Both the position numbers and the translations under genes were made by a program. This document shows, piece by piece, positions 56,761-57,824 of a stretch of DNA of 64,000 nt. How positions within the stretch are numbered: the first letter of the stretch is position 1; each line of letters opens with the position of its first letter. The stretch lies in NCBI RefSeq assembly GCF_058153355.1, contig NZ_CM177019.1; one strand, 5' to 3'. The notes under the pieces were generated by a model, which searched no databases, was not told where the DNA came from, and saw nothing but the letters and a program-made list of their open reading frames with translations.

Positions 56761-57824
56761 TTAACTGTATGCATGTAGCGTACGTTGGCAAAGTGCTGAA
56801 CGTACGCAATCCTCTTTACCGAATCGGACGATCCCGACCATTTCATCTTCTTCGAAACGTTCCAGCGCGTCACTTAATCCGGAGCGCACGCCGCGAGGTA
56901 AATCGCATTGCGTGATATCACCGTTGACAATAACCGTCACGTTCTCCCCGAGGCGGGTTAAAAACATTTTCATTTGCGCGGCAGTCACATTCTGCGCCTC
57001 GTCAAGAATGACGACTGCATTTTCAAAGGTACGTCCACGCATATAGGCGAACGGCGCAATTTCCACCTTCCCTATTTCCGGTCGCAGGCAGTACTGCATA
57101 AAGGAAGCCCCTAAGCGACGGACCAGCACGTCGTAGACCGGGCGAAAATAGGGAGCAAACTTTTCTGCGATATCACCAGGTAAGAAACCAAGATCTTCAT
57201 CGGCTTGCAGAACTGGACGGGTGACGATAATCCTGTCGACATCCTTATGTATCAGGGCCTCTGCCGCTTTTGCGGCACTGATCCAGGTTTTTCCGCACCC
57301 GGCTTCGCCGGTGGCGAATATCAGCTGCTTACTCTCAATAGCCTTCAGATAGTGCAATTGCGCTTCATTTCGCGCGAGGATGGGCGAGGTATCGCGACTG
57401 TCGCGGGCCATACCAATGGCTTCTACGCCGCTCATCTGCACAAGCGAGGTGACCGATTCTTCTTCACGCTGCTTATGGCTGCGCGAATCCCGTCTCAGCA
57501 CACGTTTTGCCTCGCGACGAGCTTTGATCACTGCTTTTTGTCTTCCCATGGAGAGCACCTTGAGTTGTTTGTATTCATCACACGCGCCGTTGGCAGCGCG
57601 ATTATGCGCACGAACATCAGAGGGTTGGCTTCCTTGTAAGCCATAGTTTGCTTTTGGATAAAATGCCGAAAAACGGCTACGCACACCGTTTGCGGCGTCG
57701 GTAACACGAGTAAAGAGAGGAAGTGAGAAAAATACAGAGTGACGAAGTTGCTACCGGAGGAGAAATCTCCGCGAGTGGTGGAGCCTTGCTTAACAAAACA
57801 TTGTCCAGAACAGGACGTTACCAT
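56761..57824 (-). pseudogene. phoH: phosphate-starvation ATPase PhoH, apparent frameshift in the 5' third; C-terminal 262-aa frame from MGRQKAV is intact
   Basis: Two overlapping ORFs in different frames (57528-57824 and 56761-57684) span 1064 nt, one short of the 1065 nt I recall for the 354-codon K-12 gene; Walker A GEAGCGKT is in the intact part. Confidence 0.5.

What the first reader, a model, noticed from the sequence alone, without database searches (positions are those of the whole stretch)
56761..57824. phoH reading frame is split; a 1-bp deletion is likely
A perfect Pho box at 57974-57991 implies PhoB-dependent transcription, and an N-terminal frame starts at 57824, but it stops at 57528 while the ATPase frame (from 57684, with Walker A GEAGCGKT) is in another frame. 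The total span is 1064 nt, one less than the 1065 nt I recall for the 354-codon K-12 gene. This is either a genuine frameshift (a shorter product from MGRQKAV at 57549 could still be made from an internal start) or a homopolymer sequencing error.
Basis: partly seen in the sequence, partly recalled or inferred. Interest (0 to 1): 0.4.

Follow-up and report, generated by a model that had tools for sequence, protein, structure and literature searches.

The report
phoH with an unfused leader reading frame
The "split" phoH is a real, common natural E. coli allele: the intact 262-codon phoH gene is preceded by a separate, overlapping 98-codon leader reading frame instead of being fused to it as in strain K-12, so it is neither a sequencing error nor a broken gene.

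Summary
On the minus strand an ATG frame runs 57824-57528. The PhoH ATPase frame (57549-56761 from MGRQKAV) is in another frame. The span is 1064 nt against 1065 nt for K-12 b1020.

The reading as a 1-bp deletion or sequencing error is not supported. The difference lies in a ~150-nt hypervariable block (18% divergent from K-12, with more than one likely indel). The same 211-nt allele is found at >=95% identity in 1964 of 5417 complete E. coli genomes, and in another Escherichia species.

The PhoH core is intact:
- The Pfam PhoH domain and the NCBIfam PhoH equivalog are covered in full.
- RefSeq annotates the 262-aa protein in both allele classes.

Across 79 Enterobacteriaceae species the upstream ATG always opens a frame that reaches the internal phoH start.
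- In 52 species it is fused (K-12 type).
- In 27 it is unfused and ends within about 25 nt of the phoH ATG (window type).
- Its amino-acid sequence is nearly unconstrained (pN/pS 0.6-0.8 against 0.02-0.05 in the core).
- Stops are excluded (shuffle P about 1e-18).

I read it as a translated leader whose fusion to phoH toggles during evolution. The finding itself is ordinary. The leader-frame pattern is a modestly interesting by-product.

The parts
57973..57990 (-). Pho box (PhoB site) of the phosphate-starvation promoter P1
   Evidence: Exact match TGTCATCACTCTGTCATC, with 0 matches in 100 shuffles. It is the same 18-mer as the PhoB ChIP-seq motif for K-12 phoH (PMC10294691).
57903..57956 (-). 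Homologue of the K-12 ArcA-P footprint region that overlaps promoter P2. The inferred P2 start is near 57882, upstream of the leader ATG.
   Evidence: The K-12 site sequence comes from the PMC3798270 supplement, with a footprint of -80 to -21 relative to P2. The window sequence differs at 2 positions. The TSS position is inferred, not measured.
57832..57835 (-). Shine-Dalgarno GGAG, 7 nt before the leader ATG
   Evidence: Read from the sequence. The GGAG...ATG context is present in all eight Escherichia sequences, and the upstream ATG is kept in all 79 species.
57528..57824 (-). Leader reading frame of 98 codons plus TGA. Its first ~32 codons are homologous to the N-terminal extension of K-12 PhoH; the rest is read in the +1 frame.
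   Evidence: No Pfam or NCBIfam match.
57657..57810 (-). Hypervariable block that holds the length difference from K-12. In the MAFFT alignment the net missing base falls near 57727/57728, at TATTTTT-CTCAC.
   Evidence: 27 of 154 sites differ from K-12, against 0 of 135 in the adjacent leader and 2.2% in the core.
57690..57692 (-). CAA codon in the leader frame, where K-12 has TAA in that same frame. This keeps the unfused leader open.
   Evidence: GCCGCAAACGG in the window and in Escherichia sp. E1V33, against GCCGTAAACGG in K-12. A K-12-type genome with a private 1-nt deletion (EEC_W5) stops at this TAA after 44 codons.
57626..57643 (-). Invariant hairpin UGGCUU-ACAAGG-AAGCCA inside the leader
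   Evidence: Six pairs, 99% paired in 32 sequences, with no informative variation.
57583..57600 (-). Covariation-supported RNA hairpin CGCGCUG-CCAA-CGGCGCG inside the leader
   Evidence: Seven pairs, 4 of them with compensatory double changes (22 cells), and a loop of variable length. 0 of 500 shuffles reach the observed score, and slid controls are far lower.
57556..57561 (-). Shine-Dalgarno AAGGTG, 6 nt before the phoH ATG
   Evidence: Read from the sequence. Invariant in the 32 aligned species, and unpaired in the centroid fold.
56761..57549 (-). phoH coding sequence of 262 codons plus TAA (MGRQKAV...HAYS)
   Evidence: Pfam PF02562 covers residues 57-261 (E 4e-77). NCBIfam NF007827 PhoH equivalog covers profile positions 1-253 of 253 at 512 bits against a cut-off of 380. 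PGAP annotates the same extent in relatives. Identity to 80 species is 93-100%.
57528..57549 (-). 22-nt overlap of the leader frame's end with the phoH start (ATGGGAAGACAAAAAGCAGTGA)
   Evidence: The same overlap occurs in 21 other species.
57286..57309 (-). Walker A motif GEAGCGKT
   Evidence: Translation.
56721..56747 (-). Intrinsic terminator-like hairpin plus T run after phoH
   Evidence: 11-bp stem with 7 GC pairs, followed by a T-rich tail.

Best explanation
The locus consists of two translated modules on the Pho-regulated phoH mRNA.

- **Leader frame.** It starts at a conserved SD plus ATG (57824). Its peptide sequence is nearly free to vary.
- **phoH proper.** It starts at its own conserved SD plus ATG (57549) and encodes the 262-aa ATPase.

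In K-12-type alleles the two modules are in frame, so initiation at the upstream ATG gives the 354-aa fused protein. In this window, and in about 36% of complete E. coli genomes, the leader is one base shorter. It is read in the +1 frame through the conserved last third and stops at a TGA 19-22 nt past the phoH ATG.

PhoH is therefore made as the 262-aa form, by direct initiation at 57549 and possibly also by reinitiation of ribosomes that terminate on the overlapping leader stop.

**Shown:** the anatomy, the allele frequency, the integrity of the core, the selective maintenance of an open leader frame in both arrangements, and the weak constraint on its amino acids.

**Inferred:** that the leader is translated in this strain, and that what is selected is ribosome transit up to the phoH start (translational coupling, or protection of a long leader from Rho or RNases) rather than the peptide itself.
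For: **Real and common allele**
- 895 genomes are >=99% identical and 1069 are 95-99% identical over the 211-nt segment, at the same length. 3441 are K-12-like and 1 nt longer.
- Frames were checked in sampled genomes: three have the 98-codon leader, two have the 354-codon fusion.
- The same haplotype occurs in Escherichia sp. E1V33.

**Intact core**
- Full-length Pfam and NCBIfam PhoH matches, none of which includes the extension.
- The 262-aa protein is 93-100% identical in 80 species.
- PGAP aa in both allele classes.
- Ribo-RET detected an in-frame internal start in K-12 phoH, with conserved start and enhanced synonymous-site conservation (bioRxiv 10.1101/520783). I see the same conservation at codons 1-20.

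**Leader frame under selection for openness, not sequence**
- In 79 of 79 species the ATG frame is open across the 57-61 variable codons. The other two frames are open in 9 and 0 species. Shuffles give P about 0.1 per species, and about 1e-18 over 18 divergent clusters.
- Six mutually divergent unfused lineages alone give about 1.6e-6.
- pN/pS of the extension is 0.58-0.84, against 0.00-0.05 in the core. There is no codon periodicity in substitutions.

**Stops always close to the phoH start**
- In all 27 unfused cases (26 species plus the window) the leader stop lies at +22 or -23 relative to the phoH ATG.
- Frame breaks are at different places in different lineages: the T run after GARSR; the early site in the window and E1V33; L043; L055. 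All go into the one alternative frame that stays open.
- The window haplotype has CAA where K-12 has an alternative-frame TAA.
Against: - No expression data exist for this allele.
- The internal SD and ATG look unstructured in folds, so coupling is not obviously required.
- The fold energy of the leader is not different from shuffles (z -0.4 and -1.3).
- Much of the regularity of the stop position follows from the nucleotide-conserved last ~95 nt being open in two frames. That could be a single historical accident, with P about 0.1.
- The number of truly independent frame breaks is small (about 5). Some may be recent, or assembly errors in draft genomes (L055).
- As I recall from Kim et al. 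1993 (J Bacteriol 175:1316; not held in the library), a ~39-kDa PhoH with the predicted N-terminus was purified from K-12. The fused form may therefore have a function that this allele lacks.
Confidence: 0.8

Rival explanations
1. Sequencing or assembly error: a base was dropped in a homopolymer and the true gene is the 354-codon K-12 form.
For: The net difference is a single base, and MAFFT places it next to a T run, TATTTTT.
Against: - The whole 211-nt segment is identical in many independently sequenced complete genomes, and 1964 of 5417 genomes are window-like.
- The allele differs from K-12 by 27 substitutions in the same block.
- It carries a matching CAA-for-TAA change.
- The same haplotype is seen in another Escherichia species.
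Confidence: 0.02
2. Partial loss of function: the 354-aa long PhoH is the functional, ancestral protein. This allele has lost it by frameshift and leaves only a truncated isoform.
For: - The fused arrangement is found in 52 of 79 species across many genera, with the ATG at a conserved distance of 90-94 codons in most of them. It is probably ancestral.
- As I recall (paper not held), Kim et al. 1993 purified the long form from K-12.
Against: - The extension is almost neutral at the protein level: pN/pS 0.6-0.8, and no periodicity.
- It has no domain match, and it lies outside the NCBIfam equivalog and the solved PhoH domain 3b85.
- Whole genera (Salmonella, Citrobacter, Kluyvera) and about a third of E. 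coli lack the fusion, while the core stays under very strong purifying selection.
- Unfused lineages still keep the leader frame open. This is not expected if the extension mattered only as part of PhoH.
Confidence: 0.08
3. The upstream region is just a long untranslated 5' leader. The open frames are chance, and the K-12 354-codon annotation is a plain over-extension.
For: - PGAP never annotates the extension.
- Substitutions lack codon periodicity.
- A covariation-supported RNA hairpin and all-position nucleotide conservation argue for RNA-level function.
Against: - The frame from the conserved SD plus ATG is open in 79 of 79 species, against 9 and 0 for the other frames. Shuffle expectation is about 10% per species.
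- The length between the two ATGs is kept in one of only two frame classes.
- Within-genus comparisons show a slight third-position excess.
- As I recall, the long protein was sequenced from K-12 (Kim 1993, not held).
Confidence: 0.08
4. Programmed -1 ribosomal frameshifting at C-AAA-AAG (57538-57532), three nt before the leader's TGA, moves ribosomes from the leader frame into the phoH frame and restores a long fusion protein.
For: - Direct reading of the sequence: leader frame GAC AAA AAG CAG TGA, phoH frame CAA AAA GCA. A -1 slip of tRNA-Lys on AAG lands in the phoH frame.
- A stop codon closely follows the site.
- Synonymous sites in codons 1-10 are almost invariant.
Against: - The heptamer is not canonical: the first base is C, not A.
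- No suitably spaced SD-like stimulator or downstream hairpin was found.
- The same sequence is present in fused species, where no shift is needed.
- The CAA/CAG variation follows phylogeny.
- There is no experimental support.
Confidence: 0.02

Closest known systems
E. coli K-12 phoH (b1020, psiH): Pho-regulon ATP-binding protein annotated as 354 aa, with promoters P1 (Pho box) and P2
   Same: - Same gene and same neighbour, efeB.
- Identical Pho box.
- Same upstream SD and ATG, and an identical 135 nt before the internal ATG.
- The core differs at 2.2% of nucleotides.
   Different: - The leader is 275 nt instead of 276 nt, so it is not fused.
- The ~154-nt block is 18% divergent.
- The downstream pgaABCD operon of K-12 is replaced here by a DUF2726 gene next to tRNA-Ser.
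RefSeq/PGAP PhoH of 262 aa (e.g. WP_000533536.1; NCBIfam NF007827)
   Same: Same start (MGRQKAV), same length, and full-length match to the equivalog model.
   Different: None at the protein level. This is the annotation the window's gene would receive.
Genes with in-frame internal translation starts that give two isoforms (Ribo-RET set of Meydan et al.: phoH, arcB, speA and others)
   Same: The internal phoH start with its own SD is conserved, and its surroundings show excess synonymous conservation.
   Different: In this allele the two starts are no longer in the same frame. The upstream start can give only a separate 98-aa peptide, not a longer isoform.
Translationally coupled overlapping cistrons, and leader or upstream ORFs whose translation rather than product matters (termination-reinitiation near a stop codon; textbook knowledge, e.g. 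the Adhin and van Duin 1990 scanning model, cited from memory)
   Same: - The leader stop lies within about 25 nt of the downstream start in all 27 unfused cases.
- The peptide sequence is nearly unconstrained while the frame is kept open.
   Different: - At 98 codons the leader is far longer than classical leader peptides.
- No sensing motif or attenuator is evident.
- In most relatives it is fused to the downstream gene.
- Coupling has not been tested.

Membership tests
PhoH family P-loop ATPase (Pfam PF02562; NCBIfam NF007827 PhoH equivalog) | Full-length match to the family profile above the curated cut-off | tested here: met
   - PF02562: profile positions 2-204 of 205, 258.7 bits (cut-off 27).
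- NF007827: profile positions 1-253 of 253, 512.3 bits (cut-off 380).
- Both for the 262-aa product.
PhoH family P-loop ATPase (Pfam PF02562; NCBIfam NF007827 PhoH equivalog) | Walker A motif GxxGxGKT present and uninterrupted | tested here: met
   GEAGCGKT at 57309-57286, invariant in the 33 aligned long-form sequences.
Pho regulon gene (PhoB-activated promoter) | Pho box (two TGTCA direct repeats 11 bp apart) upstream of the gene | tested here: met
   The exact 18-mer of the K-12 ChIP-seq site lies at 57990-57973.
Pho regulon gene (PhoB-activated promoter) | PhoB-dependent induction on phosphate starvation | not testable with these tools
   Shown for K-12 only (PMC10294691).
K-12-type long PhoH (354 aa, single frame from the upstream ATG) | Upstream ATG in frame with the ATPase frame and no intervening stop | tested here: not met
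   The distance is 275 nt (frame +1), and the stop is at 57530-57528.
Pseudogene or inactivating frameshift | Disruption of the conserved domain or of its own start, or relaxed constraint on the core | tested here: not met
   - The core, its SD and its ATG are intact.
- The protein is 100% identical to that of E. coli E69 and 93-99% identical to other genera.
- Core pN/pS is 0.05 within Escherichia.
- PGAP does not flag relatives as pseudogenes.
Sequencing artefact | Variant private to this sequence | tested here: not met
   1964 of 5417 complete genomes carry the window-like segment.
Translated leader or upstream ORF coupled to the downstream gene | Own SD and start codon, conserved across relatives | tested here: met
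   GGAG, 7 nt, then ATG. The upstream ATG is retained in 79 of 79 species.
Translated leader or upstream ORF coupled to the downstream gene | Frame kept open by selection although the peptide is not conserved | tested here: met
   - Open in 79 of 79 species, against about 10% expected from shuffles.
- Unfused lineages alone give about 1.6e-6.
- pN/pS is 0.6-0.8.
Translated leader or upstream ORF coupled to the downstream gene | Stop codon close to or overlapping the downstream start | tested here: met
   The stop ends 22 nt after the ATG (22 cases, counting the window) or 23 nt before it (5 cases), and never elsewhere.
Translated leader or upstream ORF coupled to the downstream gene | Downstream expression depends on leader translation | not testable with these tools
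   This needs reporter fusions with leader start or stop mutants.
Programmed -1 ribosomal frameshift site | Canonical X XXY YYZ heptamer with a stimulatory element | tested here: not met
   Only C AAA AAG is present. No spaced SD-like element or downstream hairpin was seen.

The most novel reading that the evidence does not exclude
The ~92-codon region upstream of phoH is a conserved, translated leader. Its function lies in being translated up to the phoH start, for coupling or for protecting a long structured leader that carries a covarying hairpin. Its reading-frame relation to phoH has switched repeatedly between fused (a long PhoH isoform) and overlapping-unfused states in Enterobacteriaceae. 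Both states segregate at high frequency within E. coli.
Probability: 0.4. Interest if true: 0.5.

Novelty: new variant of a known kind. Interest (0 to 1): 0.3.

Why it matters
**For annotation.** The split frame should not be flagged as a pseudogene or an error. The gene should be called as the 262-aa PhoH, as RefSeq already does.

**For biology.** The comparison shows that the long K-12 PhoH used in databases and in the original biochemistry is one of two natural arrangements. About a third of E. coli, and all the Salmonella and most Citrobacter species sampled, cannot make it. Work on PhoH function or on its isoforms should take the allele into account.

The selectively maintained but sequence-unconstrained leader frame, together with a covarying hairpin and strong nucleotide conservation around the internal start, points to untested post-transcriptional control of a Pho-regulon gene whose function is still unclear.

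Tried and rejected
- **Rfam scan of 56400-58300 at E <= 1**. Nothing was found in the leader. The only hits were Ysr251, antisense to the phoH 3' end, and REP-derived naRNA4 upstream.
- **Single-sequence RNA folds of the leader**. Energies are not distinguishable from shuffles, and the SD and ATG are not sequestered. A simple "structure masks the internal start" model is therefore unsupported.
- **AlphaFold2 of the long form with a 33-sequence alignment** (result). Mean pLDDT was 35.7, low even for the known ATPase domain. The model is uninformative about disorder of the extension, and I discarded it.
- **Literature.**
  - Kim et al. 1993 (PMC193217) and the Mol Cell version of Meydan et al. 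are not held.
  - No supplement is held for the bioRxiv version.
  - The TetRP supplement has no phoH entry.
  - Searches for phoH with start-site, isoform or 39 kDa terms gave nothing further.
- **GTG at 57684 as a start** (the 307-aa ORF). Rejected: it has no SD, it is not conserved, and it is simply the first start-type codon after the in-frame stop.
- **An independent 38-codon small ORF from ATG 57644 in the leader frame.** It has no SD, and there is no clear coding periodicity. Not pursued.
- **An antisense RNA ending at the plus-strand terminator-like hairpin 57626-57643**. No plus-strand promoter-like site was found. Not pursued.

Full report
**1. The observation**

On the minus strand the window carries efeB (59458-58187), a REP-like element, and then phoH.

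- The Pho box TGTCATCACTCTGTCATC is at 57990-57973. It is unique in the window, with no match in shuffles. It is the same 18-mer that PhoB ChIP-seq assigns to K-12 phoH (PMC10294691).
- An ATG at 57824, preceded by GGAG, opens a 98-codon frame that ends at TGA 57530-57528.
- The ATPase frame is open from 57684 to TAA 56763-56761. It contains ATG 57549 (MGRQKAV), preceded by AAGGTG, and the Walker A motif GEAGCGKT.
- The curated K-12 record annotates phoH as one 1065-nt, 354-codon frame. The equivalent span here is 1064 nt.

**2. What the difference from K-12 is**

The alignment shows near identity everywhere except a block of about 150 nt (window 57810-57657).

| Region | Window compared with K-12 |
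|---|---|
| Variable block | 27 of 154 sites differ |
| 135 nt just before the internal ATG | 0 of 135 sites differ |
| 789-nt core | 2.2% of sites differ |

MAFFT places the net missing base next to TATTTTT (about 57727/57728). A gap-permissive pairwise alignment instead prefers several compensating indels. This is therefore not a single-base lesion in an otherwise K-12 sequence. It is a distinct haplotype.

**3. It is not an error and not rare**

I searched a 211-nt query spanning the upstream ATG and the block against 5426 complete E. coli genomes.

- 895 genomes are at >=99% identity and 1069 at 95-99%. All sampled ones have the same length.
- 3441 genomes are at 80-90% identity. All but one of the sampled ones (H100, strain EEC_W5) are 1 nt longer, that is K-12-type.

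I fetched representatives and checked their frames.

- Window-type genomes (Z1323HEC0477, 7/2, HB-Coli0) have the same 98-codon leader ending 22 nt into phoH.
- K-12 and strain PK5 have the 354-codon fusion.
- Escherichia sp. E1V33 carries the window haplotype.
- E. coli E69, E. whittamii and E. albertii are also unfused, but through a different change: T5 to T4 in GCCGTTTTTCGG.
- One K-12-type genome (EEC_W5) has a private C deletion. Its leader then stops after 44 codons, at a TAA that is CAA in the window haplotype.

**4. phoH itself is intact**

- The 262-aa product matches Pfam PhoH over profile positions 2-204 of 205.
- It matches the NCBIfam PhoH equivalog over positions 1-253 of 253, at 512 bits against a cut-off of 380. 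Neither model includes any of the K-12 extension.
- The one related PDB entry (3b85) also covers only the ATPase domain.
- PGAP annotates the 262-aa protein in both allele classes, including a K-12 MG1655 assembly. It annotates nothing over the upstream segment in any of 60 sampled genomes.
- The short protein is 93-100% identical in 80 Enterobacteriaceae species.
- Ribo-RET in K-12 reported an in-frame internal initiation site in phoH, with conserved start and enhanced synonymous-site conservation (bioRxiv 10.1101/520783). The preprint text does not give the codon. I infer it is M93 (MGRQKAV), because that ATG and its SD are invariant, and third-position variation drops to 0.04-0.12 in codons 1-20 against about 0.3-0.4 elsewhere.

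**5. What the upstream frame is**

I examined 79 species with enough upstream DNA. All keep the upstream ATG (MVxSCTG...).

| Arrangement | Number | Detail |
|---|---|---|
| Fused (352-362 aa) | 52 species | ATG 90-94 codons upstream, in frame with phoH (99-117 codons if an additional upstream in-frame ATG present in some species is counted) |
| Unfused, stop after the phoH ATG | 21 species plus the window | ATG 275 or 272 nt upstream; 97-98-codon frame whose stop ends 22 nt past the phoH ATG |
| Unfused, stop before the phoH ATG | 5 species | 84 codons; stop ends 23 nt before the phoH ATG |

No species has an early stop.

- *Openness.* Across the 57-61 variable codons the ATG frame is open in 79 of 79 species. 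The other two frames are open in 9 and 0. Composition-matched shuffles are open about 10% of the time. Taking one representative from each of 18 sequence clusters gives a joint probability near 1e-18.
- *Unfused lineages.* Six unfused lineages that are at most 75% identical to each other in this block are all open, with a joint P of about 1.6e-6. The frame is therefore kept open even when it is no longer part of PhoH.
- *Weak peptide constraint.* Substitutions are spread evenly over codon positions (0.34/0.31/0.36, against 0.12/0.05/0.84 in the core). Within-genus pN/pS is 0.58-0.84, against 0.00-0.05 in the core.

Frame breaks lie at different places in different lineages:
- the T run after GARSR in Citrobacter, Salmonella, E. 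albertii, E. whittamii and E69;
- further upstream in the window and E1V33;
- in C. amalonaticus S646, which carries a compensating pair of indels;
- in one Enterobacter cloacae draft assembly.

All of them put the leader into the single alternative frame that is open through the conserved last third.

**6. RNA-level conservation**

From about -92 to +60 relative to the phoH ATG, the sequence is 0.86-0.99 conserved at all positions across genera, apart from one variable hairpin loop.

- Within this region, a 7-bp hairpin (57600-57583) has four pairs with compensatory double changes and a loop of variable length. No shuffle out of 500 reaches the observed covariation score, and slid controls are far lower.
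- A second hairpin (57643-57626) is invariant.
- Folding of the single sequence is not better than shuffles, and it leaves the internal SD and ATG unpaired.
- Rfam has no family here.

**7. Transcripts**

The K-12 ArcA-P footprint sequence that overlaps promoter P2 spans -80 to -21 relative to P2 (PMC3798270). It maps to 57956-57903 in the window. The P2 start should therefore be near 57882, and the Pho-dependent P1 start further upstream. By inference, both transcripts carry the leader ATG at 57824.

**8. Interpretation**

*Shown.* This is a common natural allele in which a conserved upstream frame is not fused to an intact phoH. The upstream frame is selectively kept open up to the phoH start in both arrangements, while its peptide is almost free to vary.

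*Inferred.* The leader is translated, and ribosome transit to the phoH start is what matters. This could act by termination-reinitiation coupling (the stop lies within about 25 nt of the start) or by protecting a roughly 275-nt leader from Rho or RNases. The long K-12 isoform would then be the in-frame variant of the same design.

*Points against.* The internal start looks accessible. The stop positions are largely dictated by a conserved segment that happens to be open in two frames. Independent events are few. As I recall, a 39-kDa PhoH with the predicted N-terminus was purified from K-12 (Kim et al. 1993; the paper is not held), so the fusion might have a role that this allele lacks.

**9. 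Verdict**

The finding is real but ordinary. It is a frequent allele that current RefSeq annotation already handles, with no loss of the conserved protein. The by-product is a dimorphic, selectively maintained leader frame with a covarying hairpin. As far as my literature searches could tell, this has not been described, and it is of moderate interest to people working on the Pho regulon or on bacterial translation.

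Noticed in passing
window 57583-57600 and 57626-57643 (minus strand); conserved block about 57641-57490: A covariation-supported 7-bp hairpin with a loop of variable length, plus an invariant hairpin. Both lie inside a stretch conserved at all codon positions from -92 to +60 around the phoH start, across Enterobacteriaceae genera. No Rfam family matches. Function unknown.
   Followed up: partly
window 57657-57810: A hypervariable block. E. coli haplotypes differ by 11-18% here, against 0% in the adjacent 135 nt and about 2-6% in the phoH core. 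Haplotypes are shared across named Escherichia species: the window matches Escherichia sp. E1V33, and K-12 is closest to Escherichia sp. MOD1-EC7003. This suggests old polymorphism or recombination.
   Followed up: partly
window 56766-56959 (+ strand): A full-length Rfam match to Ysr251 (Yersinia sRNA 251, antisense type) at 182.9 bits against a gathering score of 100. It lies antisense to the 3' end of phoH.
   Followed up: no
window 58102-58179 and 58032-58079: REP-derived naRNA4 (CssrE) matches in the efeB-phoH intergenic region. One is above the gathering score (63 bits against 59.5).
   Followed up: no
window 54947-56172: Downstream of phoH the K-12 neighbours pgaD and pgaC are absent. 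Instead there is a 228-aa ORF (55486-56172, minus strand), annotated as a DUF2726 protein in the closest genome, and then tRNA-Ser(GGA) at 54947-55034. The closest relative, Z1323HEC0477, has the same layout. Other window-type strains (7/2, HB-Coli0) keep pgaD.
   Followed up: partly
window 57903-57956: The homologue of the K-12 ArcA-P binding region upstream of phoH differs from K-12 at two positions within the direct-repeat elements: TAGTTAAATATAAGTAAA in K-12, TGGTTAAATATAAGTGAA here.
   Followed up: no
window 57532-57538: C-AAA-AAG lies in the leader frame, three nt before the leader's TGA. A -1 slip here would enter the phoH frame. The heptamer is non-canonical and no stimulator was seen.
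   Followed up: partly
window 57528-57644: A conserved ATG at 57644, in the leader's +1 frame, would open a 38-codon ORF (MAYKEANPLMFVRII...WEDKKQ) that is also open in K-12-type alleles. It has no SD and no clear coding periodicity.
   Followed up: partly
L086 (E. coli EEC_W5, NZ_CM130020.1), leader of phoH: A K-12-type allele with a private 1-nt deletion (CTCCTCCGG to CTCCTCGG) that truncates the upstream frame to 44 codons. It is either a recent mutation or an assembly error.
   Followed up: no
L012 and L013: A record titled Chryseobacterium sp. 18061 carries an enterobacterial phoH locus nearly identical to that of 'Citrobacter sp. 18056'. The organism label is probably wrong, or the assembly is contaminated.
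   Followed up: no
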